IMG/VR virus record: IMGVR_UViG_2585427785_000005
Origin: a virus
Lineage: Duplodnaviria; Heunggongvirae; Uroviricota; Caudoviricetes
Reading direction: 5' to 3' (one strand)
Length of the DNA: 18,927 bases
Shown here piece by piece: positions 172-18,927 of the stretch (within the stretch, counting starts at the first letter, position 1; each line of letters opens with the position of its first letter). The notes below the pieces were generated by a model. It did not search any database. It worked only from the letters and a program-made list of their open reading frames with translations, and was not told where the DNA came from. The position numbers and the translations under genes are program-made.

Positions 172-235
172 TGAACCATGGCCTCCGGAACAAATAAGGG
201 CAAAAATAACAACCACTATCGAAAGCTCACAAACT

Positions 236-555: not shown

Positions 556-611
556 TTAACCCCTTGTAATTCATCGCCATAATTGATTTAATTCACAAAT
601 AAAACTATAAC

Positions 612-1280: not shown

Positions 1281-1285
1281 CATCC

Positions 1286-1435: not shown

Positions 1436-1436
1436 G

Positions 1437-1685: not shown

Positions 1686-1715
1686 AAATCATGCCATGCA
1701 GGCCAGAAACCGCCA

Positions 1716-1741
1716 TTATCTAAAACCTCGGTTTACGAGAA
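1716..1741. repeat. gix/hix-like recombination crossover site (right)
   Basis: TTATCTAAAACCTCGGTTTACGAGAA, a 26-bp imperfect palindrome matching the Gin/Hin/Pin crossover-site pattern as I remember it. It lies just upstream of pin and is inverted relative to the site at 4797-4822. Confidence 0.8.
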
Positions 1742-2674
1742 CTCGGCACAAGCGGGGAGAAAATACCGTTACTCAGTACAGCGAATACCTGGACTAATCG
1801 ACAAACATTCAGCGGTGGCCTTTCTGGTGAACTATCCGGCAATGCTTCTACAGCTGCAAAATTAAAAACTGCCAGGAAAATAAGCAATGTGGCTTTTGAT
1901 GGTTCCTCCGATATCACATTAAAAGCAAGTCATGTTGGTGCGTTTGCCTTAGGGAAAACAGGAAGCACCGTTGCGAATGATAAAGCAGTTGGATGGAACT
2001 GGAGTAGCGGAGCCTATAACGCAACTATTAGTGGTGCATCAACGTTAATTATTCATTTTTATATGGGAGAAGGAAGTTGTCCTGCAGCTCAGTTTCGGAT
2101 TAATTATAAAAATGGCGGTATTTTTTATCGTTCAGCCCGTGATGGTTATGGTTTTGAAGCCGACTGGTCCGAATTTTACACCACCACCAGAAAACCTTCA
2201 GCAGGAGATGTTGGTGCACTGCCGTTATCTGGTGGTCAACTGAATGGTGCACTGGGTATCGGAACATCCAGTGCTCTTGGCGGTAATTCGATTGTATTGG
2301 GTGATAATGACACGGGCTTTAAACAAAATGGCGATGGTAATCTGGATGTTTATGCTAATAACGTCCATGTTATGCGCTTTGTCTCCGGAAGCATTCAAAG
2401 TAATAAAACCATAAATATTACAGGGCGTGTTAACCCCTCGGATTACGGTAACTTTGATTCCCGTTATGTGAAAGATGTTCGACTTGGTTCACAGCAATAT
2501 TATGGAGTGAACAACTGGCAAACATGGAATTTCCAGTGCCCTTCAGGTCATGTATTGTCTGGTATTAATGTTCAGGATACAGGGTCTAACTCTGCCGATA
2601 ATATAGCGGGCGTTTATTACAGACCCGTTCAAAAGTATATAAATGGCACCTGGTATAATGTAGCGAGCGTTTAA
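1724..2674 (+). CDS. silent alternative side-tail-fibre C-terminal coding segment (promoterless, expressed only after inversion)
   Basis: The reading frame is open from inside the gix-like site ([13 protein letters not shown]...) through the track ORF 1889-2674 and ends ...[18 protein letters not shown]. The expressed stf C-terminus ends ...RPLQKYISGNWYNVEQA. Shares the GGNSIxLGDNDTG motif with the active stf. Confidence 0.8.
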
Positions 2675-2675
2675 T

Positions 2676-3209
2676 ATGATGCACTTAAAGAACATAAAAG
2701 CGGGTAATGCTAAAACACTGGAACAGTATGAGTTAACAAAGAAACACGGAGTTATCTGGCTTTACTCTGAGGACGGAAAAAACTGGTATGAGGAAGTGAA
2801 AAACTTTCAGCCAGACACCATAAAGATTGTTTACGATGAAAATAATATTATTGTTGCCATAACCAAAGATGCCTCCACACTTAACCCTGAAGGTTATAGC
2901 GTCGTTGAGATTCCTGATATTACCGCCAACCGGCGTGCTGACGACTCAGGTAAATGGATGTTTAAAGATGGCGCAGTCATTAAACGTGTATATACCGAAG
3001 AAGAGTTGCGCCTACAGACGGAAAACCAGAAAAAAATATTATTACAGCAGGCCAGAGAAAAAACGCAGTTCTGGCAAACACAGCTTACTTTGGGGATTAT
3101 CACTGATTCAGACAGACAGCAACTGATGAACTGGATGCGATACGTGCAACAGGTTGAGACAACTGATACCTCGGTTCTTCCTGTAACATTCCCGGAACCA
3201 CCAGAATAA
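2676..3209 (+). CDS. tfa: tail fibre assembly protein, alternative copy inside the invertible segment
   Basis: 177 aa starting [38 protein letters not shown], paralogous to the Tfa at 3240-3767. Its ATG overlaps the stop of the upstream segment. Confidence 0.85.
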
Positions 3210-3210
3210 G

Positions 3211-3234
3211 AAAAGGCCCGTACGGGCCTTAATT
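3211..3234. terminator. bidirectional intrinsic terminator between the convergent tfa genes
   Basis: Hairpin AAGGCCCG-ta-CGGGCCTT at 3213-3230, flanked by an A-run upstream and a T-rich stretch downstream. Confidence 0.55.
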
Positions 3235-3239
3235 TGTTG

Positions 3240-3767
3240 TTATTCTGGTTTCTGTGGCCATTCAGGCTTTGCAGTATCCACACGGCTGACCATAACGCTG
3301 TAGCGTTCCCATGATTCCAGTCGTGTGCGTTCCTCATCAGTTGCCATATTCAGTCTGACAGCACGTTCCAGCGGTTGAATCACAGACTCCGCTTCGGAAA
3401 GCAAAGCGGCTTTTTGTAACTCTGCCTGCTGTTGCAGTTCCTGTTTTGTATATTCCCGCTTTACTACTTTACCATCCAGAAACTTCCAGTTTCCCGAGAT
3501 ATCGGCGCGACGGTTGGCTGTTATATTCGGTAACTCAACAACACTTAACCCGTCAGGGTTAAGCATTGATACGTCTTTCTCAATACAACGAATAATCCCC
3601 TTCTGGTCATAAGCTATTTTTAAAGTATCATCCTGAAAGTTTTTTAATTCGTCATACCAGTTTTTACCGTCTTCTGTATATAGCCAGATAACGCCAGCTT
3701 TTTTCGTAAGCTGATACTGCTCAATGGTTTTGGGGTTTCCGGCGGTAATATTTTTCAGATGTTGCAT
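3240..3767 (-). CDS. tfa: tail fibre assembly protein
   Basis: 175 aa starting [30 protein letters not shown], with an AGGAGA Shine-Dalgarno sequence before the ATG at 3767. Sits immediately downstream of stf. Confidence 0.9.
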
Positions 3768-3782
3768 ATATTCTCCTGATGG

Positions 3783-6689
3783 CTATGCCTGTTCAACGTT
3801 ATACCAGTTACCAGAAATGTATTTTTGTAGTGGTCGTGACACCATCCAGTCATCTCCATCAACCTCACCAATAATTTGCAATCCTGTTGTCACATGACCA
3901 TTACCTGGTTCGCAAAGTCCTCCGCGATATAATGTGTCAGAACGTCTGCCTCCCAGACGCACATTTCTGATAAAAGAACTATTCAGGTAATCATTTAAGT
4001 TTGAACCCCAGCACCCACCAAATATATTTCCATCGGTGTTATAACGGACGCCACCCGCAATAAGAGCACCCGGTGAAATAAAGGATTTATCGTTCGGGTT
4101 AAAATACCATAAAGCATCATTACCTCCATCGCCACGCATATGAATACATGGAACCGGAAATCCATACTGTTCTGTCAGTAAATACCCAAAGCTGACCGCG
4201 CCGGGATAGCCCTGTCCATTGCGAATGGACAAGCCCTTAACTATCGGCACGTAATGACCACCAGGAGTGGGATTCCAGGCAAACTGCGTCTGAACAAAAG
4301 GCGCGGTGGCATTATTCAACTGGTCTGCAAATGCGCCACTTCCATCAGGAATTATTCCCTGATGAATATATGCAACCCGCTTATAAAAATCAGCAGATGC
4401 GGGTTGAAGCCCAAATGCCAGTTGTCCATTTGAATAGAATAAAAGGACACCGTCGCCGCCCTGTTTAATACCAGTGTCGTTATCTCCGAGAGTAATGGAA
4501 TTACCGCCCAGTGCGTTATCTGTACCAAGCGCCAGCCCACCATCAATTTTGGCCCCGTGGCTGACAGATATAGCACCTGTTCTCAGATTTATAGCGAATG
4601 GCCTTAATGGGCCGATATCACCGTTTTCGCCTTGTCCTTCAGCCGTCGGAATGAAATGAAGAAAATCTTCTGAACGACGGAAAATAAGACCGAAGGCATC
4701 ATTGAAAATTCGCAGCGCATTCACCGTGCCAATTTTCAGTTCTCCGGTCATTTTATCGCCGGAACGCTGAACGGCGTTACCAGCCTTGTTTACCGTTTCC
4801 TGTAAACCGAGGTATTCGATAACGGCGGCAACGGTCGATTTCGCAAGAATATCCCGCCCAACTTTTGTCAGGATTGCCAGACTGGCAACATCATTCCCCG
4901 TAAAATACGGAAACCTGTCTGCCGCAGTAGCAAGCCCGGCCAGCGCCGTCAGGGTGGCATCTTTCGGTTGCTTACCCGCAAGCGCGCTAGTCATGGTGGT
5001 CGCAAAATTCGGGTCGTTGCCCAACGCCGCAGCCAGCTCGTTCAGCGTATTCAGTGCGTCAGGCGACGAGTCCACGAGGGCAGCGATCGCAGCCATAACA
5101 TAAGCCGTGCTTGCGATTTGGGTATTATTCGTTCCCTGTCGCGCAGTTGGTGTTGTTGGCGTTCCGGTCAGTGCAGGACTATTTAAGGGCGCTTTCTTGT
5201 TCGTTTCACCCATTACCGCCTTAACCGCTTTTGGCGTTGCCGCCAGTGACTCGGAAGTGCTGTTGGTCGCACTGCTGAGCTGTACTATCCCCTTTTTCGT
5301 CGTGCTCGCATCCTCCAGCGCCACGGCGGATGCAATATCCTCTGCCCGTTTTGCTGCTGTCTCGGCGCGCGTTGCCGCGGATTCCGCCGTACTTTTGCTC
5401 TGAGCTGCCGCCGTCGCACTACCAGCTGCCTCTGATGCTTTCGTTGTTGCTGTCGTGGCACTACCTTTCGCTGCTGACGCTTGTCTGGTCGCCTCATCTT
5501 TTGAAGCAGACGCAGATGATGCCGATGACGCCGCTGAACTGGCTGACGATGCGGCTGCCGCCTTAGAGGAAGCAGCATTGTCTGCTGAAGTCTTTGCATT
5601 TGTTTCAGAGGTTTTTGCTGCAGAAGCAGACCTCGCTGCTGCAGTGGCTTGCTCAGTGGCTTTGCCAGCCTTCGTTGTGGCTGTTGAAGCGGATGATGCG
5701 GCGCTTTCTGCCGATTTTCCGGCGGCGGTGGCACTGGCTGAGGCCTGCCCGGCACTTGTTGACGCGGCACTGGCAGATAATGCAGCCGCTGTTTTTGAAC
5801 CTGCCGCAGCTGAGGCGCTCTGTCCCGCTGCTGTTTCAGAAGACTTAGCGTTCGTCTCGGACGTTTTTGCCGCCTTCGCGGAATTTCCTGCCGCCGTTGC
5901 CGAGGAAGCTGCACTACTGGCACTTGATGATGCATTCGTTTCTGAAGATTTCGCTGCCTCTTTTGAGGCCGCCGCACCCCGTGCCGAGGTGGCAGCTTCT
6001 GACGCCTTCGTGGTCGCTGTGGATGCAGAAGTGGCTGCCGATTTTTGTGATGCTGCGGCATTCGTTTCTGACGTTTTCGCGGCACTGGCGCTGGTAGCTG
6101 CCGCGCTTTTTGATGACTCTGCAGCAGCAGCACTTTTTGCTGCTTCACGGGCCTTTGTCGATGCCGTTCCTGCGCTGGAAGACGCTGACTGAGCCGACGA
6201 CGCGGCCTGTCCGGCTGACGTGCTGGCGGCACGTGCTGAGGCTGCAGCATCGGTTGCATGAGTTGCCGCCTCGCTGGCTGATGCACTGGCATCGCTGACT
6301 GATTTTTTCGCGGCTGCCGTATTCTGTGCAACCGCGGAGGCGTTACGTGACACCTCTTCTACCATCTGCTCAAAGCGGCGCAGTGCCTCCGGTCGGACAT
6401 CATCCTCCGTCATGGCACCGAGAAAATCATTCAGCGTACCTGGTCTGGAACCTTCATAGACGGTAATGGTCCCGGCATGTGAAGGCGGAAAACCTTCAAC
6501 CAGCAGGGTGACGCTGTACTGACCATGCTCAACATCCATGCTGTAACGTCCGGCTTCATCCGGATTTTCAGAGGCCACCGTGTTCACCACCACCGTGCTG
6601 CTGGTTCGTCTGGCCTTCAGCACAATGGTGCAGTTCTGTACTGGTTTTCCTGTGCCATCTTTAAGCACGCCAGAAATTTTTACTGTCAT
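3783..6689 (-). CDS. stf: side tail fibre protein (968 aa)
   Basis: N-terminus MTVKISGVLKDGTGKPVQNCTIVLKARR...GRYSMDVEHGQYSVTL is lambda Stf-like, followed by a long Ala/Ser/Thr-rich repetitive shaft. The gix-like site lies inside the coding sequence (encoding VIEYLGLQE) at the constant/variable junction. C-terminus ...QKYISGNWYNVEQA. Confidence 0.9.
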   Translation of the reverse strand: MTVKISGVLKDGTGKPVQNCTIVLKARRTSSTVVVNTVASENPDEAGRYSMDVEHGQYSVTLLVEGFPPSHAGTITVYEGSRPGTLNDFLGAMTEDDVRPEALRRFEQMVEEVSRNASAVAQNTAAAKKSVSDASASASEAATHATDAAASARAASTSAGQAASSAQSASSSAGTASTKAREAAKSAAAAESSKSAAATSASAAKTSETNAAASQKSAATSASTATTKASEAATSARGAAASKEAAKSSETNASSSASSAASSATAAGNSAKAAKTSETNAKSSETAAGQSASAAAGSKTAAALSASAASTSAGQASASATAAGKSAESAASSASTATTKAGKATEQATAAARSASAAKTSETNAKTSADNAASSKAAAASSASSAASSASSASASKDEATRQASAAKGSATTATTKASEAAGSATAAAQSKSTAESAATRAETAAKRAEDIASAVALEDASTTKKGIVQLSSATNSTSESLAATPKAVKAVMGETNKKAPLNSPALTGTPTTPTARQGTNNTQIASTAYVMAAIAALVDSSPDALNTLNELAAALGNDPNFATTMTSALAGKQPKDATLTALAGLATAADRFPYFTGNDVASLAILTKVGRDILAKSTVAAVIEYLGLQETVNKAGNAVQRSGDKMTGELKIGTVNALRIFNDAFGLIFRRSEDFLHFIPTAEGQGENGDIGPLRPFAINLRTGAISVSHGAKIDGGLALGTDNALGGNSITLGDNDTGIKQGGDGVLLFYSNGQLAFGLQPASADFYKRVAYIHQGIIPDGSGAFADQLNNATAPFVQTQFAWNPTPGGHYVPIVKGLSIRNGQGYPGAVSFGYLLTEQYGFPVPCIHMRGDGGNDALWYFNPNDKSFISPGALIAGGVRYNTDGNIFGGCWGSNLNDYLNSSFIRNVRLGGRRSDTLYRGGLCEPGNGHVTTGLQIIGEVDGDDWMVSRPLQKYISGNWYNVEQA
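4797..4822. repeat. gix/hix-like recombination crossover site (left), inside stf
   Basis: TTCCTGTAAACCGAGGTATTCGATAA. The reverse complement of the right site is TTCTCGTAAACCGAGGTTTTAGATAA, so the two are inverted repeats sharing the core AAACCGAGGT. Confidence 0.8.
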
Positions 6690-7507: not shown

Positions 7508-10261
7508 TCAGCTAATCGTGATGCCTGCAGTGGCTTTCTTCATCACCACAACCAGCAAATCGCTGATACTTGCTGTGGGATACCAGTTATTTACCAGCCA
7601 TGCTGACACCGAAAACTCCAGTGTCATGTGACCGTGACCGGCAGGCATATCAATAACACCACTGTAAATCAGCGTATTATCCAGCGCGGTACGGTTATAA
7701 ATTTCAGCACCGTTTTTCCGCACTATCAGACGGCATGAGGAGTAAATATCAGTATGCTCTTTCTCATGTTTAGCGCCGCTGAATGCCACCGCCGGAATAA
7801 CAATCTGCCGGTCAAACGGCTGATCGTCATAAACCCTGACGGTAATGGTTCCTGATGGCCACCGCTCCGGTGCACGGGAGTCCCGGGGGAAAGCTTTGCC
7901 CACTGTTTTAACGAGATCGCCTTCAATCTGGTTCGCGGACAATTTTCCCAGAACCCGACAGTTCTCGTTAATCGTGACGTTGTTGAGCGTCCCGGAGTTC
8001 GCATTCACGTTACCGCTGATATCGGCATTTTTCGCCGTCAGCCGCCCGTCCGGTGTCAGGGAAAATGCCGGAGGATTACCGCCGCTGGTAATGGTGGGAG
8101 CCGTCAGATATTTCAGGAACACTTCATTCATAAATATCTGATCGCCCTGACCAACAAACATCGGCTTTGTGTTGCCATTCGCAGGATTAATCATCGCAAT
8201 CCTGTCTGCCGCCAGCAGCACCTGACTCTGCATTCCTGCTGGCGTATTCTCAATACCGGCACCGATACCCGCAATATAAAGGCGTCCGTCCTGCATCTGC
8301 TGCAGTTTCACGGCCCACATGCTGTTCAGGTTATTATTTGTATCAACCTGAACTTTCTGTATCTGCTGGATTGCCGCACTCTGATTTTCCAGTTTTTTAT
8401 TGACGGTCTGCGTGATTTCATTGCTGACATTCGTAATGGACGTCCTGATTTCAGCCAGGTCCGGCGCAAGCTGACCGTTATCAATCTGCGTCCACAGCTC
8501 CTGGGCCAGATGTGTTTTCCCGATTTCTCCTTTGAAAAAATCCAGGTAACCTTCCGCATCATCGCTCGCCCGACCGACAGCCTCCACGAATGCCGATTTG
8601 CCGACTGTATTCACACTGCGGATATAAAAATAATAATCATGGCCCGGCTTGATATTGATACTGGCAGCTATCCAGTACAGCGCCGAGCCAAGATAGCGGG
8701 CTGCGGTTTCAACCTGCCTGATATCCGCAATCCGCTTTTCTGAGAACCAGAACTCAAACTGTACCGTCGGATCATAAACGGCAAGATACGGCGTGGCGGT
8801 TATCTGAAAATAGCCCGGCGTCAGCTCAATCCGCGACGGCGCTGCCGGTGCGGCAATCCGGAACGATACCGATGCCGGATCGCCCTGCTGCCCCCACGCA
8901 TTTGCCGCCCGGACTGTCAGCCTGTAGTTTCCCAGCGCCAGTTGCGTGAAGCGGTATGTGGTTTCCGTCGTCCTGGCCGTGCTGACCAGCCGCTCACTGC
9001 CGTCATCCGCTGCCACGGTCAGGCGAAGCAGGAAGCTCACGCCCTTCACCACCTTCGGCGTGTCCCAGCGGGCCAGTACCTGATATTCCCCGCTGTCTGC
9101 GGTGACTTCGGCAGTCAGGTGCTGCACCGCTGGCGGCGTGACACCATTCACCGTGCCGCTCTGGTCGCCGTCAAAGTGCGCCCCGTTATCCACGATGGCT
9201 TCTTTTTCCGGTACATGCTGCACGGCGGTGATGGCATACGTGCCGTCATCGTTCTCACGGATACTCACGCAGCGGAACAGGCGCTGGCGCAACGTCGGCA
9301 GCTTCAGCCCCCATACGCTGTATTCAGCAACGCCGTCAGGAACACGGCTCACTTTCACCTTCACGCCGTCGGTGACGGACTGAACCTCCACGCTGACCGG
9401 ACTCCCCTGCCCGTCAACCAGGCTTATCAGCGTGGTGCCGGAAGATGGCAGCGTGATTTCACGGTCGAGCGTCAGCGTCCGGGTCTGGCTGTTTACCGCC
9501 AGCACGCGCCCGCCGGTGCGGATACCGGCATAGTCATCATCGCAGATTTCAATGACATCGCCCGGTACATGGCGAAGCCCTTCGGCACCCACGCTGAAGT
9601 CCACGGTCTGCGTTTCCAGCAGTTCTGTTTTAATCAGCCACAGCCCGGCGCGGTGTGCCTGCCCCCGGCTGGTACAGCCAAAAGCATCCATCTTCGTGAC
9701 GTTACGACCGTAACGGGCAATGGCCTGCGTGTCCTCCACAAGCTCTGTCGCCGTCTCCCAGCCGTTATTCGGGTCAATCCAGTTCACCTCAACGGCATTA
9801 TGGCGGTCCTTCAGGGCGCTGAAGCTGTAGCGGAACGGCGCACCATCATCCGGCATCACCACATTACTGCGGTTATAGGTCCACACCTTATCCGATGGCC
9901 GGTCCTGCACAAACGTCAGCGTCTGCCCGTTCCATACCGGCATACAGCGCATCGCCGAGCAGAAATCACTGAGCACATCCCACGCCTTGCGCTGCGTGGT
10001 CAGGTACGCATTACAGGTAATACGCGGCTCCGTGCCACCAAAGCCATCCGGCACCGACTGGTCGCAATTCTGGCCGATGACATACAGCGCCCATTTATCC
10101 ACATCCGCCGCACCAAGACGTTTCCCCATGCCGTAGCGCGGATGGGTCAGCATATCCCACAGACACCAGGCCATGTTGTTGCTGTATGCCGGTTTAAACG
10201 TTCCGTCCCAGATACCGCTGTACAGTTCATGATGCCAACCTGAAACGGCAGTGTTTCCCAC
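7508..10261 (-). CDS. J: tail tip / host specificity protein J, C-terminal ~900 aa (5'-truncated remnant with an open 917-codon frame)
   Basis: Large ORF in the lambda J position (upstream of lom and stf). The frame is open only from about 10285. The true N-terminal third of J and all head and tail-shaft genes are absent. Confidence 0.8.
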
Positions 10262-10452
10262 CGCCCCGGGGTATAAGACGACTCTTTAGGAAGGTAATAA
10301 TGTTTATTGGCCCACTGAACTGTCGTCAGTGGAACAGGAATAATGAGAGATAAAAGCCCTGTAGCTATCGCACCGGCTGCATTAGCTGCCTTCTGTGCGT
10401 CTGAAATCATCGATCCACCCGCCCACGTTTTCACCGGCCTTAGCTGCAACAT
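10147..10452 (-). pseudogene. A: terminase large subunit (gpA), N-terminal ~75-codon fragment; homology ends near 10213
   Basis: ...[34 protein letters not shown] parallels the lambda gpA N-terminus ([33 protein letters not shown]). After that the frame reads through J-derived sequence in the wrong frame to a stop. Confidence 0.75.
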
Positions 10453-10930
10453 TGGAGGCTTTCGCGATTTCAGTTTTCACCACATCAAGGTGTGATGGTG
10501 AAATGTCCGGATATTTACGCTGTAATGTCAACGGCACACGCACAAGTATCCCCGAAATCTCCTGTGCCACACGTTGCAGAATGAAGGTAAATAGTTCAGT
10601 TTCCAGCACCACTCCGTCTTCACGGGCATTTTTCAGTTCCTGCGCATCTGCCTGCGCTTTTGTGAGCCGGTAGCGTTCATAGTCAATGGTGCCGGGTTGT
10701 AAATCTGACTCCGCTGCCGCACGCAAATCGGCCAGTTCTTTGCGGAGCTTTTCGTTTTCGATATCAGTTTCCCTCTGCGCATACCACTGAATTGCCATGG
10801 CAGTATCAAATACAGATTCAATGCCCTTACTGCCTTTGGAGACGCAAGGGAGCCCCTGAGACTGCCAGCGTTCAATCGTCCGCGGGTCCACGTTAAAAAT
10901 TTCGGCAAGCCTCTTTTTATTAACCTTCAT
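10382..10930 (-). CDS. nu1: terminase small subunit (Nu1-like, 182 aa)
   Basis: [28 protein letters not shown]...[29 protein letters not shown] closely parallels lambda Nu1. Start taken at the ATG at 10930 rather than the track start at 10975. Confidence 0.9.
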
Positions 10931-10939
10931 AGAACAACT

Positions 10940-11120
10940 CATTATCAAATACAAGGCCCGACATGAAAACGCCAAAAAAAGGCATTTTCGGACACTTTCA
11001 TGTCGGACATTTATGAATGCAATATTAAAAAAAACAAAAAGTTATATTCGAGAAGTACCGACACGATTTTCCCTGAAAAATTTTCATAAATAGTGAAAAA
11101 CCGCGAGGTCGCCGCCCCGT
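10940..11120 (-). promoter_or_regulatory. cos site: cosN (cohesive-end sequence at 11106-11117) plus cosB-like repeated TerS-binding elements
   Basis: The minus strand reads GGGGCGGCGACCTCGCGGTTTTTCACTATTTATGAAAATTTT, almost identical to the left end of lambda cos as I remember it. Between cosN and the Nu1 start there are three copies of a TGTCCGAC/TCGGACA-like element (10947-10998). Confidence 0.85.
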
Positions 11121-11340: not shown

Positions 11341-12408
11341 ATGAGTCAACATCAATATTATCCACAGCTGAAATGGAAGCCTGCTGAATATGAATCTCTG
11401 ATGCTTTTAGATCAAACTACGCTCTCTGGTTTTACTCCGATCATTACCATTCCAGACATAGACTGGGATTATGAAAACGAATGCTACAAGAAGAGTTTGA
11501 GTTCTTACTTATCTGACTTCGGTATTAACCTTGCGGCATCCTGGAAAGCCAATCGTCCTGTTTTGCTGGATGTTAAATATTTAGATAAACATGGTTCGAG
11601 CCGCCATCATCCTCTAGATATGTGTATCCAAGATGCTAGAGTAAATGGTAAGGAAATTATCCCTGTTGTTTCTCCCGCATATTCAACAAACTATATACAT
11701 GCTGTTCAACGCAACTTAATCAATGGGCTCGCTATATCTATCACCCCCCAGACATGGCACCAATTCACAAGTCTGGTTAACCACTTAAATATTCATCCTA
11801 GTTTAATTGATGTAATCATTGATTTTGGAGATATTCAAAACGCAACTGATAGTTTAAAACAACAAGCATTAAGCATGGTCAACACATTATCAGGCCAAGC
11901 TCCGTGGAGAAACTTGATTTTATCTTCAACCGCATACCCGGCATCACAGGCAGGGATACCGCAACATCAAGTCCATCATATTCCGCGCCATGAATACGAT
12001 CTTTGGATGTACGTAGTACAGAATTTTAGCAATGGAAGAACGCCAAGTTTTAGTGATTATCCCACCGCTAGCTCTACCATTACGAGCGTAGACCCACGCT
12101 TCATGTCTCAGTATGTCTCAGTGAGATATTCGAACGATACCTCATGGATCTTTGTAAAAGGTACCGCAGTTAAAGGAAATGGATGGGGCCAAACTAAAAA
12201 CTTATGTACTACCCTTGTTAGTTCGCCAGAGTATCAAGTCTTTGGCTCCAAATTTAGTTGGGGGGATGATTACATTTACCAAAGATCATTAGGCGCTAAC
12301 AAATCTGGCGGCTCTAAAGAATGGCGTAAAGTTGCACATACGCACCATATTACGTTAGTCGTGAGACAGCTTTATTGGTTGGCGCAGACTCAGCCTGCCA
12401 AGCCTTAA
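11341..12408 (+). CDS. hypothetical protein, 355 aa (moron gene; possibly beta / sce7725-like family, unverified)
   Basis: Intact ORF in low-GC DNA with AAGGAG 7 nt before the ATG and an AT-rich promoter-like region at 11220-11335. No catalytic motif I can name by eye. Confidence 0.7.
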   Translation: MSQHQYYPQLKWKPAEYESLMLLDQTTLSGFTPIITIPDIDWDYENECYKKSLSSYLSDFGINLAASWKANRPVLLDVKYLDKHGSSRHHPLDMCIQDARVNGKEIIPVVSPAYSTNYIHAVQRNLINGLAISITPQTWHQFTSLVNHLNIHPSLIDVIIDFGDIQNATDSLKQQALSMVNTLSGQAPWRNLILSSTAYPASQAGIPQHQVHHIPRHEYDLWMYVVQNFSNGRTPSFSDYPTASSTITSVDPRFMSQYVSVRYSNDTSWIFVKGTAVKGNGWGQTKNLCTTLVSSPEYQVFGSKFSWGDDYIYQRSLGANKSGGSKEWRKVAHTHHITLVVRQLYWLAQTQPAKP

Positions 12409-12970
12409 CTTTCCAGCCTACGCGTTTCTTTAAGGCTGTTCTGACTTCAAGCCTGAGATTCGCTATTGGAATATTTTCCGCAATAATATTCCATAACTCA
12501 AATCGGGGCTTGCTTTTGATTCCTTTGGAATAGCCCCATCGTTCAAGTACGTCGATACATTCATCTTTCCAAAGCAATTGAGCGAGCATCAATGTGTCAT
12601 GGTTTCGATTAAGCTTTTCTCCACGCATGTGCTTTATAAGAATGGCGCCTTTTGGCCCAACAGAAACCGTTTTAACGCCCCACCAACCTGGGATTAACTT
12701 TAATGCTCCCTCAAGGTGTTTCTCAGCTACGACAAGAGTAACCTTGTCCATTACAGAAGAATAATGCTTGATTTGAAGAGGCAAACGCTCCAAAGAGTCA
12801 TATTCACTTTTGAGCTCGTACCCGTGTATAACACCATTTATTACAGCAATGTCTGCTCTACTGGCGCCAAGGGATATGGAAAATTCATCGACCACAAGGC
12901 AGTCTGGATCTAAATGCGATTCTTTCAAAAGCTTATGATGCACCGCGAACCTAACATCTTGATCTTTCAT
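12350..12970 (-). CDS. hypothetical protein, 206 aa, with a PD-(D/E)xK nuclease-like core (possibly sce7726-like, unverified)
   Basis: Intact ORF with AGGAGA before the ATG and a perfect TATAAT (minus strand, 12999-13004) upstream. The N-terminal region has D40-x11-E52-L-K54 in a hydrophobic context (RADIAVINGVIHGYELKSEYD). Confidence 0.7.
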   Translation of the reverse strand: MKDQDVRFAVHHKLLKESHLDPDCLVVDEFSISLGASRADIAVINGVIHGYELKSEYDSLERLPLQIKHYSSVMDKVTLVVAEKHLEGALKLIPGWWGVKTVSVGPKGAILIKHMRGEKLNRNHDTLMLAQLLWKDECIDVLERWGYSKGIKSKPRFELWNIIAENIPIANLRLEVRTALKKRVGWKVKAWQAESAPTNKAVSRLT

Positions 12971-13386: not shown

Positions 13387-13860
13387 TTATTTTAAGCACT
13401 GCGTCCTGATGTACTCCTGCAGGTAGTTGACCTGAGCGGTTATCTTGTCGATTCCACTTCGGAGACGGTAATAATTGAGTTCAGCATCTGCTGTAAGTCT
13501 TGGGCTTTCTCCATCGCCCATGCTGCTGGCTCCGGTCGTTGACTTTGCACAGGTGGCGGCGACTTGCAGGCGCTTACGCCCAGCAGAAACATCAGCACGA
13601 AGACTTTCGATAGTCGCGTTAGCATCAGCAAGCTCCTTTGTGTATCTGGCGTCGAGTTCTGCTACATCACGCTGACGCATCTGCATGTCAGTAATTGCCA
13701 CGTTCGCCAGCTTCAGTTCTCTGGCATTTTTGTCGCGCTGGGCTTTGTAGGTAATGGCGTTATCACGGTAATGATTAACAGCCCATGACAGGCAGACGAT
13801 GGTGCAGATAACCAGAGTATAAATAATCGCTGCGACTCTGCTCACTGATCTATCCCCCAA
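13387..13860 (-). CDS. Rz: i-spanin Rz
   Basis: 157 aa with an N-terminal transmembrane segment ([18 protein letters not shown]) then a coiled-coil-like region, closely lambda Rz-like (...[26 protein letters not shown]...). Overlaps the endolysin stop. Confidence 0.85.
13440..13631 (-). CDS. Rz1: o-spanin Rz1 (lipoprotein) embedded in the +1 frame of Rz
   Basis: Embedded ORF with a lipobox-like LLGVSAC followed by a proline-rich stretch [13 protein letters not shown], as in lambda Rz1. Confidence 0.6.
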
Positions 13861-14375
13861 CAGGCTAATGCGCTTTCCTGGTCACGACGAATAACCTGTC
13901 CATAGCAGTTATTTGAACGTATGCGGCAATCGCGCCCACCATCTTTTATCCACCAGCGAATCGCCTCGCATGCGCCCTTACGATCACCGGCATTCAGCCG
14001 CTTATAAAACGTCGACGGGAAACACTTACCGGGGCCAATGTTATAGGGACAGAATGACGCTATACCCGCTTTCTGTGGTTCGGTCAGTGGTACTTTAATA
14101 TTGCGCTCCACCCATGCCAGCGCCTTATCACGTTCAATAGCGTTAACCTGGTCGCATTTTTCCTTCGACAGCTTCATTCCCGGTATGACGGGCTTACCAT
14201 CCACCATTGTGGCACCACGACAGATGGTCCATATACCGGAACCATCGCGGTATGCCGTAGTGTGGTTACCCTCTTTTTCATCCAGAAACTGGTCAAGTAT
14301 TTGAGGAGCAGACGCGCCTGCAGCAATCAGCGCCAGAACAGCAGCTGACAGGCCGTATTTGATTTTTGCGCTCAT
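13842..14375 (-). CDS. R: SAR endolysin (T4-lysozyme-type muramidase, phage 21 R-like)
   Basis: 177 aa with an N-terminal signal-anchor-release region [24 protein letters not shown] and a catalytic E-x8-D-x5-T arrangement ([16 protein letters not shown]). Confidence 0.92.
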
Positions 14376-14430: not shown

Positions 14431-14745
14431 CTAACAACCCGTAATCGAGTTATCAGAACTGTTAATTTTTATGGTATACCGCGCCTCTGAACAGGGGCGC
14501 GTTTCTGGCAACAGCTCGTCCCCTTCACATAACCCGGCAGCAACATCCAGGAAGACCTGTCTGATGCTCCTTCTGGCTGCTGCCTCATAAAACTCCAGCG
14601 CGGCACCTTCAACACGGTCCAGCGAGATGTCCAGGTCAAAAATTTCACCGTCAAAGCGTTTTTTGTCCCGTAACGCTAAAGTTACCGTAACTTTATTCTC
14701 AAAATTGCGGATCCCTTTCACAATCAGTTCATAGTTTTGAGTCAT
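14431..14745 (-). CDS. hypothetical 104-aa protein between holin and endolysin (YdfR / DUF1327-like by position and size, from memory)
   Basis: ORF begins 4 nt after the holin stop, suggesting translational coupling. Acidic, no transmembrane segment. Confidence 0.55.
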   Translation of the reverse strand: MTQNYELIVKGIRNFENKVTVTLALRDKKRFDGEIFDLDISLDRVEGAALEFYEAAARRSIRQVFLDVAAGLCEGDELLPETRPCSEARYTIKINSSDNSITGC

Positions 14746-14749: not shown

Positions 14750-14965
14750 TTACTCTCCCCGTGCAGCCTTACGACGGTCCTCTCTGATTTTGAAATACAG
14801 GTTAGTCAGATATGTCAGCAGCCCAAACAGCAGACTCCCCAGCACGCCTATTGCCGCCCACTGAGACGGGGAAACCCTGTCCAGCAACTGCAGGAACCAG
14901 TAGCCCGTTCCCACCGCTGACGTGGTGTATGACACACCTGTTGTGATTTTTTCCATCTGGTACAT
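14750..14965 (-). CDS. S: class II holin / pinholin (phage 21 S-like, ~71 aa)
   Basis: [71 protein letters not shown] has two transmembrane segments and a charged C-tail. Dual Met starts (M1, M4) are typical of holin/antiholin pairs. The longer track ORF to 15043 runs through the upstream terminator. Confidence 0.85.
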
Positions 14966-14995
14966 ACCCCATCTCCCGTTATCCGGAAGCTGACA

Positions 14996-15031
14996 ACAAT
15001 AAAAAAAGCCACCAGTTAAGTACTGATGGCT
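14996..15031 (-). terminator. intrinsic terminator between the esterase gene and the lysis cassette
   Basis: Minus strand AGCCATCAG-loop-CTGGTGGCT followed by TTTTTTTATT. Confidence 0.5.
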
Positions 15032-15115
15032 CTGATAACTCATGCAGGCATCTCAGACGACCCACTGACACTACCGGTGAGTTTAACGATACCTTCCATT
15101 TGACTGGCTCACTTT

Positions 15116-16969
15116 TTATGATGATGCCGGTGCATTTATCTCCAGCACCAGACTTTCTATCTCAACGCCATACGCTGCATTTTTTGTAACATCCGTCAGC
15201 GTCAGCGCATTCAGCCCCAGTGTCAGACTGTCTTTTATGACCTGGAATGCCGGGCCAGCCACTCCATTCAGTTTCGGAGTAACCGTGACACTGCCGGCGG
15301 TGAACACCAGCTCCAGCGTCTGCCAGTCGTTACCGTAATCGCCGAACTCCCCCAGCTTCGTGTTTCCGGCTTTCCTGTGATGCATCAGATTCAGTTTGCC
15401 GTCTGTGGTCTGGGTGAAGAACGACATCAGGAACGGGTTACCAGTCCCGGTCATCGCCACGACGTCAGGTAACGCTACATCGGTATACAGATAAATTCCC
15501 AGACCGAACTGGTTGTTGGTCAGTGCGCCTGACAGTCGAAACTTACAGCTCAGTCTGCCACCCCGTGTCAGCAGGGAGACTGCGTCATCCACCGGATGCA
15601 TCAGGGACCAGGTTTTATTGCTCTGCTTGGTGATCTTAAATACACCATCTGACAACTGAATTCCGCCATTCTTAATGCTCCAGCCCTGCGCAGCAGCATC
15701 TCCGGCTGTCGGCAACAGGGAGATTGTGCGTACGGATGCATCTTCAGACGGCCCCGATGGCGTGTCGCCGCCGGGCGAGGGTTTGATTTCCGGTGCCTTA
15801 CCACTAATGAAGGCTAAGGTGCGACCGGCTACGTTCAGAATAGCAGTTGCCATACGATCGGGAATAATGCCACGACGCGCCCATGAGCTGAAATGCGTCG
15901 GGCGATTTGATGATACCCAGTTTTTGTTCGTTCGGGATGCCGAACCGTAATAACCAGACCCGGCAATATCAGGATCTTCTGACGGGTTGTTTGTCGGTGT
16001 ATTAACTCCGCTACCATCGGTCATAAAGGGAACAAAATAAATCTGCTGGGATTCTTTACCTTTATATGCACCATATACCACTTCATATTGCGTACCGTGT
16101 TCTTGTTTCCACGCGTATGTCGTGTCGCCACAAATTCAGGGGACTGATGCCGGACTTCCACCGTGACACTGCGCCGCCAGCCCGGCAAGGTCAGCACGGA
16201 ACTGCTGTACCATTGCAAGAAATGCTGCTGGCTGCTGGGCGTAACTGGCATTCGTCATATCGAATTCCCCCTGCATCCAGCATATCGCCAGCAAAACGTT
16301 TTTCGGGTTTTTCTGCAATGCTGCCTTCGTGCGGAAAAGCAGATCCTGATATAACGGCTTACCCACTCCCCAGCGAGCCGAATCCTGACTGGCCCCCGTG
16401 GACTCGCTGAATGTCCCCTCCGTGCCCTGGGTGAATGCCGAACCACCACGACAGCATGGTACCAGCAGGATCCCCGCGTTATTAGGGATATACGGAAGCA
16501 GTTTTTTGGCAATATGTAAGCCCTGTCCGACACAGCCGTACTGCCCTTTGCTCAGGTCAGCCCGGGGATGATTAATCGTACTCATATCCTGAACATCATG
16601 CAGACAATGGTCAGCAGGAATGATGTCGTTAAATACGCATACTTCACCACCGGGAGTCACTGTGTTACGACGGGCCAGTTGCTTAATGCGCGGATGGGGC
16701 GCATCGTATGAATCCGGAAGCGGAAGCCCTTCACCGTAAGCCATGGCATTGGATTGCCCGGCCAGTACGATGACGTAGTACCACTCCGGCTCAGTTGCAC
16801 CACTGACGACCACATCACCTTCTGCTGCAATCGCCTGCATCAGGGTATAAGGGGTTATGGCCACCGGACTACCAAACGGCTGCCAGCCCTCTTTCAGTTT
16901 ATGTGTCAGCTTTTCCGCAAGATCTGACGGCGACGCCGCCCTGACAACATCATAGTGTTTAAATGCCAT
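15116..16969 (-). pseudogene. NanS-p-like sialate O-acetylesterase (DUF1737 N-terminus plus SGNH-type esterase plus C-terminal domain) interrupted by an in-frame TGA at 16136-16138
   Basis: N-terminus MAFKHYDVVRAASPSDLAEKLTHKLKEGWQPFGSPV and a GQSN esterase motif (YYVIVLAGQSNAMAY). The two track ORFs (16136-16984 and 15116-16081) are in the same frame, separated only by one TGA and 18 sense codons. Confidence 0.75.
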
Positions 16970-17162
16970 GGTTCTTTCCACCATCTGAAAAATGATTCTT
17001 TAAAATACCTGACATGTAATACAGAAAAAACACAAAACCATACCTTAAATAAAAACCTCATCATCAAGCAGATATGCATGGATAAACTACAAGACGAGAT
17101 ATAAACCACCCTGCATTTAAATAAACAATAAACAACATCAGAAAAATAATTCTGCTCTATGG

Positions 17163-17189
17163 TTTACAATCAAAAATATCATTTATACT
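17163..17189 (+). promoter_or_regulatory. candidate sigma70 promoter for the 17230 ORF
   Basis: TTTACA-15 nt-TATACT lying 40 nt upstream of the ATG, in a very AT-rich divergent intergenic region. Confidence 0.3.
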
Positions 17190-17229
17190 TTTCAGAACAT
17201 CACCAGCAAGGCATAAACAAGGAAACTAA

Positions 17230-17565
17230 ATGAAGTGGATTGTGATTGATACAGTTATCCAGCCATCATGCGGAATATCTTTTTCAGTCATATGGAGTAA
17301 AATAAAATTAATAATCTGGTATCAATCGGATGCTTTCTTACCTCCTGAAAGTATATTTACACTGACTCACACAGGCATCATGCTCAATAACAAAGTGCTA
17401 CCTGTAACCATTTACAACGTAGTACCATTCAATAAAACATTCTGGAATTTAATCAAAAACAGCCAGGAATGCCCTACAAATACAGATAACGTATTGAATG
17501 AATGCTTTAATAACCGTTGCACTCTGCAAATATGTCCTTATGGGCTAAAACAACAAAGTCCATAA
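17230..17565 (+). CDS. hypothetical 111-aa protein, AT-rich moron ORF
   Basis: AAGGAAA Shine-Dalgarno sequence 7 nt before the ATG. Very low GC, five Cys in the C-terminal half, no recognisable motif. Opposite strand to the surrounding late genes. Confidence 0.35.
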
Positions 17566-17584
17566 GGAGTTTACTCACATCTGA

Positions 17585-17790
17585 CAAAATCAATATAAAC
17601 AGCCCCTCCGGAGAGGGGCTGGAGAGTGGCGCTATGTGCCATTGCATGGTGCCGGGTGCCTCCCGGTGAATTCAGTACCAGCACCTGAATCCGCGATTAT
17701 CCCATATACCTACTCGCTGATTACCCCTCCGCACAGGGGGATTCACCATGCGAAATTTTTTAACAAACTTCCCGCCGGCCAGACAATAAT
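17585..17790 (-). ncRNA. E1: candidate promoter, ~160-nt structured transcript and intrinsic terminator (minus strand)
   Basis: -35 TTGTCT (17786-17781), 18-nt spacer, -10 TAAAAA (17762-17757). The 5' GCAUGGUG pairs with a 3' CACCAUGC. Terminator hairpin AGCCCCTC-tccg-GAGGGGCT (17620-17601) then a T-rich tail. Confidence 0.35.
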
Positions 17791-18057
17791 CGCCAGCCTG
17801 AATTATGAGCAACGTGGCATTTTACGGGAAAACTGTTTTCTGCAGTAAAAAGGCCCGCCGGAGCGAGCCTGGAAGGATAGCGGTCATGTGATGCCGGTTT
17901 CCCGGTAACTCAGCATCGGTATCTGAGTCAACGTTTTCTCTACTGGGTCATTTCCGATACGTTCCGCCTTCCGGCAGACTTTCATCACGTCAGAAAATAT
18001 AGCACCCTGAGTAACAGGACAGTACTCAGAATTCAGGAAACTGTGACACATCCTGCA

Positions 18058-18255
18058 CAGAAAAGCCCCTCCGGAGAGGGGCTGAAGTATAGCCTAATTT
18101 CTGTCTGTCGCATGGTGCCAGGGGACTCCCGGTAAATTCAGCCTGTCTACTGAATTTGCATGTTCTCTGGATCATACACTTTGCCAGATGCCCCGCCGCT
18201 GAGGGGGATTCACCATGCGATGTAATTTTTAACAAATTCTCCGGCAGCCAGACAA
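18058..18255 (-). ncRNA. E2: diverged tandem copy of E1 with the same promoter, 5'/3' pairing and terminator
   Basis: -35 TTGTCT (18255-18250), 18-nt spacer, -10 TAAAAA (18231-18226). 5' CGCAUGGUG pairs with 3' CACCAUGCG. Hairpin 18083-18064 followed by UUUUC. Confidence 0.35.
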
Positions 18256-18512: not shown

Positions 18513-18589
18513 TGGACCGCCATCGAGAACTCGAACCCCGCGCAACCAGCTTCGAAGGCTGGCGCTCTATCCCGATGAGCTAATGGTGG
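18513..18589 (-). tRNA. tRNA-Arg (anticodon UCG)
   Basis: Cloverleaf folded by hand: acceptor CCACCAT/ATGGCGG with one mismatch, D-stem GCTC/GAGC, anticodon stem CCAGC/GCTGG with loop CTTCGAA, T-arm CGGGG-TTCGAGT-TCTCG, encoded CCA. Confidence 0.75.
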
Positions 18590-18598
18590 TATGTGATA

Positions 18599-18674
18599 TG
18601 GTGGCCCTTGCTGGATTTGAACCAGCGACCTGGCGATTATGAGTCGCTCGCTCTCACCACTGAGCTAAAGGGCC
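18599..18674 (-). tRNA. tRNA with CAU anticodon (Ile2/lysidine-type or Met; ileX/ileZ-like)
   Basis: GGCCCTTTAGCTCAGTGGTGAGAGCGAGCGACTCATAATCGCCAGGTCGCTGGTTCAAATCCAGCAAGGGCCACCA, 76 nt. Perfect 7-bp acceptor stem, T-loop TTCAAAT, encoded CCA. Close to the E. coli ileX sequence as I remember it. Confidence 0.85.
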
Positions 18675-18723: not shown

Positions 18724-18927
18724 TCAAACGATTAAATCCTGAACTTCCCTGACTGTCTGCTCAAAACGTCCGGTCTCCAGTTCAACGCCAATCGCACGAC
18801 GCCCGAGCGCCAGTGCCGCTTTTACCGTTGAACCTGAGCCCATAAAAAAATCTGCAACCAGGTCACCCGGACGACTGCTTGCGCTGATTATCTGCTGCAG
18901 CATTTCTGCCGGTTTTTCGCACGGATG
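18724..18927 (-). CDS. DNA methyltransferase (N6-adenine / N4-cytosine family), C-terminal 67 aa; the gene continues beyond the window
   Basis: Minus-strand translation HPCEKPAEMLQQIISASSRPGDLVADFFMGSGSTVKAALALGRRAIGVELETGRFEQTVREVQDLIV* carries the HPxxKP and D-x-F-x-GSGST (SAM-binding) motifs of beta-class amino-methyltransferases. Confidence 0.8.
   Translation of the reverse strand, partial: HPCEKPAEMLQQIISASSRPGDLVADFFMGSGSTVKAALALGRRAIGVELETGRFEQTVREVQDLIV

What the first reader, a model, noticed from the sequence alone, without database searches (positions are those of the whole stretch)
17230..17565. Very AT-rich, divergently oriented 111-aa ORF with its own promoter at the cargo locus
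The ORF has a good Shine-Dalgarno sequence (AAGGAAA) and a plausible sigma70 promoter, lies opposite to all surrounding late genes, and has much lower GC than the backbone. This is the signature of a separately acquired, autonomously expressed moron. The product is Cys-rich in its C-terminal half, has no signal peptide, and matches nothing I recognise. Together with E1 immediately downstream (whose hairpin could terminate it) it may form a small unit.
Basis: seen in the sequence. Interest (0 to 1): 0.45.

Follow-up and report, generated by a model that had tools for sequence, protein, structure and literature searches.

The report
iraL, a known prophage RpoS-stabiliser gene
The AT-rich, oppositely oriented 111-codon ORF is iraL, an already characterised prophage-borne gene whose small protein blocks the adaptor RssB and so protects the stress sigma factor RpoS from degradation; the finding is real but ordinary.

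Summary
The ORF at 17230-17565 (+) is real. Its product is 100% identical to IraL of uropathogenic E. coli CFT073 (c1429). IraL is the fourth RssB anti-adaptor; it stabilises sigma-S in log phase (Hryckowian et al. 2014, mBio). The coding DNA is 335/336 identical to CFT073. The 5'-RACE-mapped transcript start matches the window at 17197-17228 (31/32), downstream of a TATACT -10 box.

The protein scores 162 bits on NCBIfam IraM (cut-off 121) and is 62% identical to K-12 IraM. An AlphaFold model superposes on IraM in the IraM-RssB crystal structure (TM 0.90). The same DNA occurs in 1446 of 5426 complete E. coli genomes.

The "moron" reading is right. A 630-nt, 33% GC cassette sits between an STnc100-family sRNA and the nanS-p esterase gene, antisense to the late operon of a defective lambdoid prophage.

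The downstream hairpin ("E1") is not iraL's own. It is the terminator of the convergent STnc100 sRNA and has no U-tract on the iraL strand.

Two points are not found in the papers read. The four C-terminal cysteines are 97-100% conserved across the family. A third paralogue lies next to stx2c in Stx2c phages.

Novelty: already known. Interest: low.

The parts
17230..17565 (+). iraL coding sequence (111 aa plus stop), an RssB anti-adaptor of the IraM/IraL/RssC family
   Evidence: The protein is 100% identical to CFT073 IraL and the DNA is 335/336 identical. NCBIfam NF007393 scores 162 bits against a cut-off of 121. PDB 8twd IraM matches at E = 9e-32. It is 62% identical to K-12 IraM.
17219..17225 (+). 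Shine-Dalgarno sequence AAGGAAA
   Evidence: Read from the sequence. It lies inside the mapped 33-nt 5' UTR.
17197..17229 (+). iraL 5' UTR; transcription start at A17197, by homology to the 5'-RACE-mapped start in CFT073
   Evidence: The paper's 32-nt 5' end matches window 17197-17228 at 31/32; the mismatch is T17227 versus C.
17163..17189 (+). iraL promoter: -10 TATACT (17184-17189) and a -35 candidate TTTACA (17163-17168, 15-nt spacer)
   Evidence: The position relative to the mapped start comes. Natural variants cluster at 17167 and 17169. The exact -35 hexamer chosen in the paper is shown only in a figure that could not be read.
16971..17600 (+). AT-rich iraL cassette (about 630 nt, GC about 33%) with no counterpart in Stx2a phages, which have an unrelated 231-nt spacer here
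   Evidence: BLAST of the window against Stx2a phage L005 aligns only the flanks: 16862-16970 (nanS-p start) and 17601-17767 (STnc100).
17591..17779 (-). STnc100 (RF02076)/PasD-family prophage sRNA gene, convergent with iraL.
   Evidence: Rfam gives 132.5 bits against a gathering score of 47, over the full model length. The terminator scan places it on the minus strand. Folding gives -24.2 kcal/mol, z = -4.5, with a U-rich tail on the minus strand only.
17844..18019 (-). Degenerate STnc100-like copy, below the Rfam gathering score
   Evidence: 30 bits, E = 5e-4. Its terminator-like hairpin is at 17851-17870.
18055..18248 (-). Second full STnc100-family sRNA copy
   Evidence: 132.9 bits. Its terminator hairpin is at 18064-18083.
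15116..16984 (-). nanS-p-type esterase gene (DUF1737 + SASA + DUF6645), the first late-operon gene downstream of iraL. It is interrupted here by an in-frame TGA at 16136-16138.
   Evidence: Pfam hits are. The intact 617-aa homologue in AR_0069 has W where the window has a stop.
18513..18674 (-). Phage tRNA-Arg(TCG) and tRNA-Met(CAT) genes, upstream of the sRNA copies in the late transcription direction
   Evidence: ARAGORN and Rfam tRNA.

Best explanation
The ORF is iraL, a horizontally acquired accessory gene carried in the late region of a lambdoid prophage that is defective here.

Mechanism, steps shown in the literature for the identical protein:
1. iraL is transcribed from its own sigma-70-type promoter during ordinary exponential growth, independently of the phage late promoter.
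2. The 111-aa cytoplasmic protein binds the response-regulator-like adaptor RssB.
3. RssB then cannot deliver sigma-S (RpoS) to the ClpXP protease. Sigma-S half-life and level rise, and the general stress regulon is pre-armed.

Steps inferred here:
- Residues 1-78 adopt the PmrD-like beta-barrel seen for IraM bound to RssB.
- The IraM residues that touch the RssB receiver domain are all conserved in IraL. Those that touch the RssB C-terminal domain and linker are partly changed.
- This fits the published finding that IraL binds only the RssB N-terminal domain.
- Because the gene lies antisense inside the Q-dependent late operon, late transcription after induction of an intact relative would have to run antisense through it.
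For: Identity to the characterised gene:
- The protein is 111/111 identical to CFT073 IraL, the CDS is 335/336 identical, and the upstream 245 nt are 238/245 identical.
- The mapped transcript 5' end matches at 31/32.

Family membership:
- NCBIfam IraM scores 162 bits against a cut-off of 121.
- PDB 8twd IraM matches at E = 9e-32.
- The AlphaFold model has mean pLDDT 89.4. It superposes on 8twd_A at TM 0.90 and rmsd 1.3 A, and on PmrD 4hn7.

Published experiments on the identical protein:
- Deleting iraL halves the log-phase sigma-S half-life, from about 5 to about 2.5 min.
- Complementation with the gene under its native promoter restores stability.
- His6-IraL and CBP-RssB co-purify.
- In a two-hybrid assay IraL interacts with the RssB N-terminal domain only.

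Contact residues taken from the IraM-RssB structure paper, compared:
- Cluster I: 5/5 identical.
- Cluster II: 3/5 identical (T13S, L75I).
- Cluster III: 2/4 identical (H63N, I64V).

Selection and spread:
- dN/dS against iraM is 0.17.
- The exact protein is on at least 1000 contigs.
- The locus is in 1446 of 5426 complete E. coli genomes, always annotated as an anti-adapter.

Context: it is the same as in the CFT073 potB prophage, namely Q, tRNAs, STnc100, iraL in opposite orientation, DUF1737/esterase, holin, lysozyme.
Against: Nothing contradicts the identification. The caveats concern this particular copy.
- The promoter region differs from CFT073 at 17169 (next to the -35 candidate), 17196 (position -1) and 17227 (between the SD and the ATG). 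Expression in this strain is therefore inferred, not shown.
- The prophage is degraded: nanS-p carries a nonsense codon and the head and tail genes are deleted. Antisense control by late transcription may no longer operate here.
- Whether the host of this window has wild-type rssB and rpoS cannot be seen from the window.
Confidence: 0.95

Rival explanations
1. The gene is intact but silent or irrelevant in this genome. It would be a passenger relic in a decaying prophage whose promoter variant or H-NS silencing of the AT-rich island prevents useful expression.
For: The prophage is defective. nanS-p has an in-frame TGA and Nu1 abuts a truncated J gene, with no portal, capsid or tail-tube genes. 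There are three substitutions in the promoter and 5' UTR relative to CFT073. The published work notes that a -35 point mutation in a second iraL copy of strain JJ1886 leaves its expression uncertain. The island is only 29-35% GC.
Against: The -10 box, the TTTACA hexamer, the SD and the whole protein are intact. The identical promoter variant recurs in an unrelated genome, AR_0069. The coding sequence has only one synonymous difference from the functional allele. That is not what neutral decay alongside a broken neighbour would give.
Confidence: 0.1
2. The protein acts as a PmrD-like connector on a response regulator other than RssB, for example by protecting a phosphorylated receiver domain such as PmrA. 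RpoS stabilisation would then be secondary.
For: The model matches PmrD structures 4hn7, 2jso and 2rqx at TM 0.70-0.74. The IraM structure paper notes the PmrD-like fold and says both proteins raise net phosphorylation of their partner.
Against: Sequence identity to PmrD is only 14-21% and Pfam gives no hit. The identical protein physically co-purifies with RssB and changes sigma-S half-life. The RssB-receiver contact residues of IraM are 5/5 conserved.
Confidence: 0.03
3. The ORF is a chance open frame in AT-rich spacer DNA, and the functional element is the nucleotide sequence, for example a regulatory or antisense RNA.
For: None beyond the low GC content. The region is antisense to the late operon.
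Against: The ORF length has P about 3e-4 given its composition. dN/dS is 0.17. It matches a family HMM and has homologues at 24-45% identity across Enterobacterales with invariant residues. Rfam finds no RNA family within 17000-17590.
Confidence: 0.01

Closest known systems
IraL of E. coli CFT073 (c1429 / C_RS06710, WP_000871291.1; Hryckowian et al. 2014, mBio 5:e01043-14)
   Same: The protein is identical (111/111) and the CDS is 335/336 identical. The promoter, mapped start, SD and 3' flank are the same. The prophage slot is the same, between an STnc100 sRNA and the DUF1737/esterase gene, opposite to the late genes.
   Different: There are seven substitutions in the 245 nt upstream, three of them in the core promoter or 5' UTR. 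The window has three tandem STnc100 copies where CFT073 has one. The CFT073 prophage keeps its head and tail genes, whereas the window's does not.
IraM (YcgW/ElbA) of E. coli K-12, the Mg2+-starvation/PhoP-induced RssB anti-adaptor; structure 8TWD
   Same: Same family (NF007393). 62% aa identity with no gaps over 107 residues. Same PmrD-like fold. The same four C-terminal cysteines. It also lies beside prophage DNA, next to e14.
   Different: The upstream region is unrelated. IraM is stress-induced, whereas IraL acts in unstressed log phase. IraM binds both RssB domains, IraL only the N-terminal one. IraL has four extra C-terminal residues.
RssC of Salmonella and the wider IraM-like proteins of Enterobacterales (Citrobacter, Cronobacter, Enterobacter, Kosakonia, Pantoea)
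   Same: Same length class (about 108-125 aa). The same invariant W72, C81, C97 and C102, and near-invariant W3, P12, W30, C92 and P103.
   Different: Only 24-45% identity. About half have Cys at position 11 instead of 14. Their genomic contexts were not examined here.
PmrD (polymyxin resistance connector protein; 4HN7, 2JSO, 2RQX)
   Same: The beta-barrel plus helix fold of residues 1-78 (TM 0.70-0.74). Both are small proteins that bind a response-regulator receiver domain.
   Different: There is no detectable sequence relationship (14-21% identity, no Pfam hit). PmrD lacks the Cys4 tail. Its partner is PmrA, not RssB.
Lambdoid late-region cargo genes (stxAB, lambda bor/lom 'morons')
   Same: It is accessory cargo with foreign composition inserted in the late operon downstream of Q and the tRNAs. 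In Stx2c phage 2851 a paralogue sits directly after stx2cB and STnc100.
   Different: stx is co-oriented with, and dependent on, Q-antiterminated late transcription. iraL is antisense to that transcription and has its own constitutive promoter.

Membership tests
IraM/IraL/RssC anti-adaptor family (NCBIfam NF007393) | Whole-protein score above the curated HMM cut-off | tested here: met
   162 bits against a cut-off of 121, E = 4.7e-48, covering 1-110 of the protein and 1-113 of the 114 profile positions.
IraM/IraL/RssC anti-adaptor family (NCBIfam NF007393) | PmrD-like antiparallel beta-barrel plus helix fold of the N-terminal ~78 residues | tested here: met
   The AlphaFold2 model has mean pLDDT 89.4, and 90-97 for residues 1-80. 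Foldseek against 8twd_A (IraM) gives TM 0.90 and rmsd 1.3 A over 78 columns.
IraM/IraL/RssC anti-adaptor family (NCBIfam NF007393) | Conservation of the IraM residues that contact RssB in the crystal structure | tested here: inconclusive
   Cluster I (RssB receiver face) is 5/5 identical. Cluster II (RssB C-terminal domain) is 3/5 identical. Cluster III (linker / alpha8) is 2/4 identical. The partial divergence agrees with IraL's reported binding to the N-terminal domain only.
IraM/IraL/RssC anti-adaptor family (NCBIfam NF007393) | Physical binding to RssB and stabilisation of sigma-S against ClpXP | not testable with these tools
   This was shown experimentally for the identical CFT073 protein by co-purification, two-hybrid assay and half-life measurement. 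It was not measured for this strain.
IraL lineage (as opposed to IraM) | >=95% nucleotide identity to CFT073 iraL over the whole coding region (criterion used in Hryckowian 2014) | tested here: met
   335/336 nt, compared with 70% nt and 62% aa identity to K-12 iraM.
IraL lineage (as opposed to IraM) | Conserved iraL promoter/upstream region (>=96% to CFT073) with the mapped start | tested here: met
   238/245 (97.1%) upstream identity. 31/32 match to the RACE-mapped 5' end. No similarity to the iraM upstream region.
Phage 'moron' (autonomous accessory gene in a prophage) | Own promoter independent of phage late transcription | tested here: met
   The sequence is identical at the -10 box and at the mapped start of CFT073 iraL, whose native-promoter clone complements the deletion.
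Phage 'moron' (autonomous accessory gene in a prophage) | Composition distinct from flanking phage genes, and absent from otherwise collinear relatives | tested here: met
   GC is 33% against 49%. The flanks are contiguous, 231 nt apart, in Stx2a phage L005.
Phage 'moron' (autonomous accessory gene in a prophage) | Own transcription terminator | tested here: not met
   The only hairpin downstream (17600-17621) belongs to the convergent STnc100 sRNA. It has no U-tract on the + strand.
PmrD family | Sequence membership (Pfam/HMM match to PmrD) | tested here: not met
   Pfam returned no family. There is only fold-level similarity, at 14-21% identity.

The most novel reading that the evidence does not exclude
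The C-terminal tail (residues 79-107) is not a dispensable floppy appendage. It would be a conserved Cys4 module, C81-P-x10-C92-x4-C97-x4-C102-P-Y-G, most simply a zinc knuckle or a redox or metal sensor. Such a module could control the stability or activity of IraL/IraM-type anti-adaptors.

Separately, the gene's antisense placement in the Q-dependent late operon could make it a lysogeny-only gene. The same arrangement is seen next to stx2c in Stx2c phages. Antisense late transcription would then shut the gene off on prophage induction.

Neither idea is raised in the papers read here.
Probability: 0.3. Interest if true: 0.4.

Novelty: already known. Interest (0 to 1): 0.1.

Why it matters
IraL raises RpoS levels during unstressed growth. 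It is enriched in uropathogenic, prostatitis and Shigella isolates, so it is a real fitness and virulence modifier delivered by prophages. For this scan the value is mostly negative: the 'unrecognised Cys-rich moron' is a named, characterised gene that is routinely annotated.

Two by-products could interest specialists in RpoS proteolysis and Stx phages.
- The four tail cysteines are 97-100% conserved in a family whose only crystal structure omitted that tail.
- A third paralogue lies convergent to stx2c in Stx2c phages and is unannotated in several phage records.

Tried and rejected
- Pfam-A gave no family for the ORF. PADLOC gave none.
- The generic sigma-70 scan did not pick up the true promoter, because TTTACA and TATACT are 15 nt apart. 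Its + strand hits at 17122-17150 and 17281-17308 occur at chance frequency and do not fit the mapped start, so they were disregarded.
- The hairpin as iraL's terminator was rejected. There is no U-tract on the + strand, and the hairpin is the 3' end of STnc100 on the minus strand.
- The chance-ORF and non-coding readings were rejected.
- A PhoP box like that expected for iraM was looked for by eye only. Just one half-site-like GGTTTA (17161-17166) was seen. This was not pursued, because the iraL and iraM upstream regions are unrelated.
- The weak PDB hits to Kti11/Dph3 zinc-finger proteins (E 0.26-0.9, residues 9-47) are not significant and do not involve the Cys-rich tail.
It was repeated with alignment A4.
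- The supplementary figures of the IraL paper, which show the exact -35 call and promoter variants, are not held.
- Literature searches linking iraM to zinc or cysteine, or to Stx2c phages, found nothing relevant in the held library. That is not proof of absence.

Full report
OBSERVATION

AAGGAAA lies at 17219-17225.

The ORF is 34.8% GC and the 245 nt upstream are 29.4% GC. The rest of the window is 49.3% GC.

In such AT-rich DNA a 111-codon open frame is unlikely by chance. From its own composition, P is about 3e-4. Only 0.05% of 2000 shuffles of the island gave an ORF this long.

The surrounding genes are all on the minus strand. They are, in order:
- a DUF1737+SASA esterase, 16136-16984;
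- its DUF6645 continuation, 15116-16081;
- a P21-type holin, 14750-15043;
- DUF1327, 14431-14745;
- lysozyme, 13842-14375;
- Rz, 13387-13860.

Five cysteines lie at 14, 81, 92, 97 and 102.

IDENTITY

NCBIfam places the protein in 'anti-adapter protein IraM' (NF007393) at 162 bits against a curated cut-off of 121. Pfam has no model for it.

The PDB sequence search hits IraM of the IraM-RssB complex 8TWD at E = 9e-32. Against K-12 IraM (b1160, fetched) identity is 66/107 (62%) with no gaps.

The published description of IraL (Hryckowian et al. 2014, PMC4045071) reports a CFT073 homologue with 58.9% aa identity to IraM, located on the potB island. I fetched that island from NC_004431.1.
- The CFT073 gene (C_RS06710, c1429) encodes a protein 111/111 identical to the window ORF.
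- The coding DNA differs at one synonymous site, 17544. The 245 nt upstream differ at 7 sites. The 60 nt downstream are identical.
- The 5'-RACE-mapped mRNA start, ACATCACCAGCAAGGCATAAACAAGGAAACCA, matches window 17197-17228 at 31/32.
- This places the start at A17197 and gives a 33-nt leader that contains the SD.
- TATACT (17184-17189) is the -10 box. TTTACA (17163-17168) is the best -35 candidate.

The exact protein is in public databases, where UniRef names its cluster after IRAM_ECO27, and it was seen on at least 1000 contigs. The 601-nt locus is present at >=90% identity in 1446 of 5426 complete E. coli genomes. It was annotated 'anti-adapter protein IraM' in all 30 listed records.

So the finding is iraL.

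IS IT A PROTEIN-CODING GENE UNDER SELECTION?

Between iraL and iraM, pS is 0.65 and pN is 0.215, giving dN/dS of about 0.17.

An exhaustive HMMER scan of 1.84 billion cluster representatives finds only 71 relatives. Sampled clusters come from Citrobacter, Salmonella, Cronobacter, Enterobacter, Kosakonia, Intestinirhabdus and Pantoea.

Full-length members at 24-45% identity align end to end.

MECHANISM

The following were shown in the literature for the identical protein.
- Deleting iraL lowers log-phase sigma-S and halves its half-life, from about 5 to about 2.5 min.
- The gene with its native promoter restores stability.
- His6-IraL and CBP-RssB co-purify.
- In a two-hybrid assay IraL binds only the RssB N-terminal domain, unlike IraM, which binds both.
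- iraL mRNA rises in a fur mutant and on a shift to 37 C.

The following are inferred here.
- An AlphaFold2 model built from 40 family members has mean pLDDT 89.4.
- It superposes on IraM chain 8twd_A at TM 0.90 and rmsd 1.3 A, and on PmrD at TM about 0.7.
- I mapped the three IraM contact clusters from the structure paper onto IraL.
  - Cluster I, the RssB receiver 4-5-5 face, is 5/5 identical.
  - Cluster II, the RssB C-terminal domain, is 3/5 identical (T13S, L75I).
  - Cluster III, the linker and alpha8, is 2/4 identical (H63N, I64V).
- That pattern fits the reported N-domain-only interaction.

The most likely mode of action follows from this. IraL occupies the receiver face of RssB that sigma-S needs, and so blocks hand-off to ClpXP.

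GENOMIC SETTING

The window is a defective lambdoid prophage. Reading in the late (minus-strand) direction it contains:
- the 3' end of a DNA methylase gene, 18724-18903;
- tRNA-Met and tRNA-Arg;
- three STnc100-family sRNA copies: 18055-18248 at 133 bits, 17844-18019 at 30 bits, and 17591-17779 at 132.5 bits;
- iraL, on the opposite strand;
- the nanS-p-type esterase gene, and then the lysis cassette.

After the lysis cassette come a PADLOC 'cll' hit and a Beta_protein/PD-Lambda-2_C-like gene. Nu1 (10382-10975) then abuts a 917-aa J gene (7508-10261). Lom, tail-fibre and tail-fibre-assembly genes follow. Portal, capsid and tail-tube genes are missing.

The same order around iraL is seen in three other records:
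- the CFT073 potB prophage;
- strain AR_0069;
- the induced phage vB_EcoS-640R1.

In a Stx2a phage the order is tRNAs, stx2AB, STnc100, a 231-nt spacer, then nanS-p. BLAST aligns only the flanks of the iraL island to it: 16862-16970 and 17601-17767.

The 630-nt AT-rich cassette is therefore an inserted or swapped module one slot downstream of the stx position. This is the classic anatomy of a moron.

No minus-strand promoter-like site was found between 16800 and 18100. By the established single-late-promoter logic of lambdoid phages, Q-antiterminated transcripts in an intact relative must cross the STnc100 terminators. They must then run antisense through iraL to reach the lysis genes. That step is inferred, not shown.

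THE 'E1' HAIRPIN

The 9-bp GC-rich hairpin at 17600-17621 is the terminator stem of the convergent STnc100 copy.
- On the minus strand it is followed by UUUAUAUUGAUUUUG and folds at -24.2 kcal/mol, z = -4.5.
- On the iraL strand it is followed by GAGAGUGG.

It may still stall or stabilise the iraL 3' end. But it is not iraL's own canonical terminator, and the 'small unit' idea is not supported.

STnc100 and the related PasD sRNAs are known markers of Stx-type prophage late regions.

BEYOND THE KNOWN

- The IraM-RssB structure used residues 1-78. The paper calls the tail less conserved, flexible and proteolytically unstable.
- On average that holds in my alignments: mean column entropy is 2.4-2.5 bits for 79-107 against 2.2 bits for 1-78.
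- However, C81, C97 and C102 are invariant, and C92 is present in 97% of 33 sequences at 24-75% identity. Along with M1 and W72 (invariant) and P12 and P103 (97%), these are the most conserved positions in the family.
- With the family alignment, AlphaFold gives the tail pLDDT 75-81, not disorder.
- None of the three anti-adaptor papers searched mentions zinc or these cysteines.
- A Cys4 zinc knuckle or redox element is a reasonable but untested reading.

(b) A third paralogue.
- It is 74-75% identical to IraL and 65% identical to IraM.
- It occurs in about 40 Stx2c/Stx2 phage records.
- In phage 2851 it is unannotated. It lies directly after stx2cB and STnc100, convergent with them and upstream of nanS-p.

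VERDICT

The feature is real and correctly described. Its interpretation as an autonomous moron is correct.

It is an already known and experimentally characterised gene, iraL, so novelty and interest are low.

Noticed in passing
window 17472-17550 (IraL residues 81-107); alignments A3/A4: The four C-terminal cysteines (C81, C92, C97, C102) and P103 are conserved in 97-100% of IraM/IraL-like proteins at 24-75% identity. The only crystal structure (8TWD) omitted this tail, and its paper calls the tail less conserved and flexible. AlphaFold with the family alignment gives the tail pLDDT 75-81. A possible Cys4 metal or redox module.
   Followed up: partly
L006 (phage 2851, FM180578.1) 4001-4324 (+); about 40 Stx2c/Stx2 phage records: A third IraL/IraM paralogue, 74-75% identical to IraL and 65% to IraM. 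It lies immediately downstream of stx2cB and an STnc100 sRNA, convergent with them. It is unannotated in phage 2851 and many Stx2c phage records. No paper in the held library links iraM and Stx2c phages.
   Followed up: partly
window 18055-18248, 17844-18019, 17591-17779 (all minus strand): Three tandem STnc100 (RF02076)/PasD-family sRNA copies, two full (about 133 bits) and one degenerate (30 bits). Each ends in a CCGGAG-loop terminator hairpin. CFT073 and the Stx2a and Stx2c phages examined have one copy at this place. The + strand ORF 17636-17848, annotated 'hypothetical protein' in phage records, overlaps the sRNA and has no Pfam hit; it is probably spurious.
   Followed up: partly
window 15116-16984 (-), stop codon at 16136-16138: The nanS-p-type sialate O-acetylesterase gene (DUF1737 + SASA + DUF6645) is split by an in-frame TGA. 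The intact 617-aa homologue in AR_0069 has Trp at that position. It is probably a pseudogene or truncated product. Phage 2851 also annotates this gene as two ORFs.
   Followed up: yes
window 7508-10975 (-): The Nu1 terminase small-subunit gene (10382-10975) lies directly next to a 917-aa J tail-tip gene (7508-10261). Terminase large subunit, portal, capsid and tail-tube genes are absent, so the prophage is a deletion remnant that has kept iraL, the lysis cassette and the tail-fibre genes.
   Followed up: partly
window 11341-12408 (+) and 12350-12970 (-): Between Rz and Nu1 sit two convergent, overlapping genes. One is a 355-aa Beta_protein (PF14350) that hits PADLOC PD-Lambda-2_C and 'beta'. 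The other is a 206-aa protein that hits PADLOC 'cll'. Together they may be an anti-phage defence cargo pair in another moron slot.
   Followed up: no
window 17163-17170 versus L003, L004, L001: Natural variation in the iraL promoter is concentrated at the -35 candidate and the base after it: TTTACAAT (window, AR_0069), TTTACATT (CFT073) and TTTATATT (phage vB_EcoS-640R1). The IraL paper mentions a -35 point mutation of unknown effect in a second copy in strain JJ1886.
   Followed up: partly
window 1-3800: A class I SAM-dependent methyltransferase gene (612-1280, +) is embedded among oppositely oriented tail-fibre-assembly genes (2676-3209 +, 3240-3767 -). In AR_0069 a small recombinase gene sits in this region. 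This suggests an invertible tail-fibre host-range segment.
   Followed up: no
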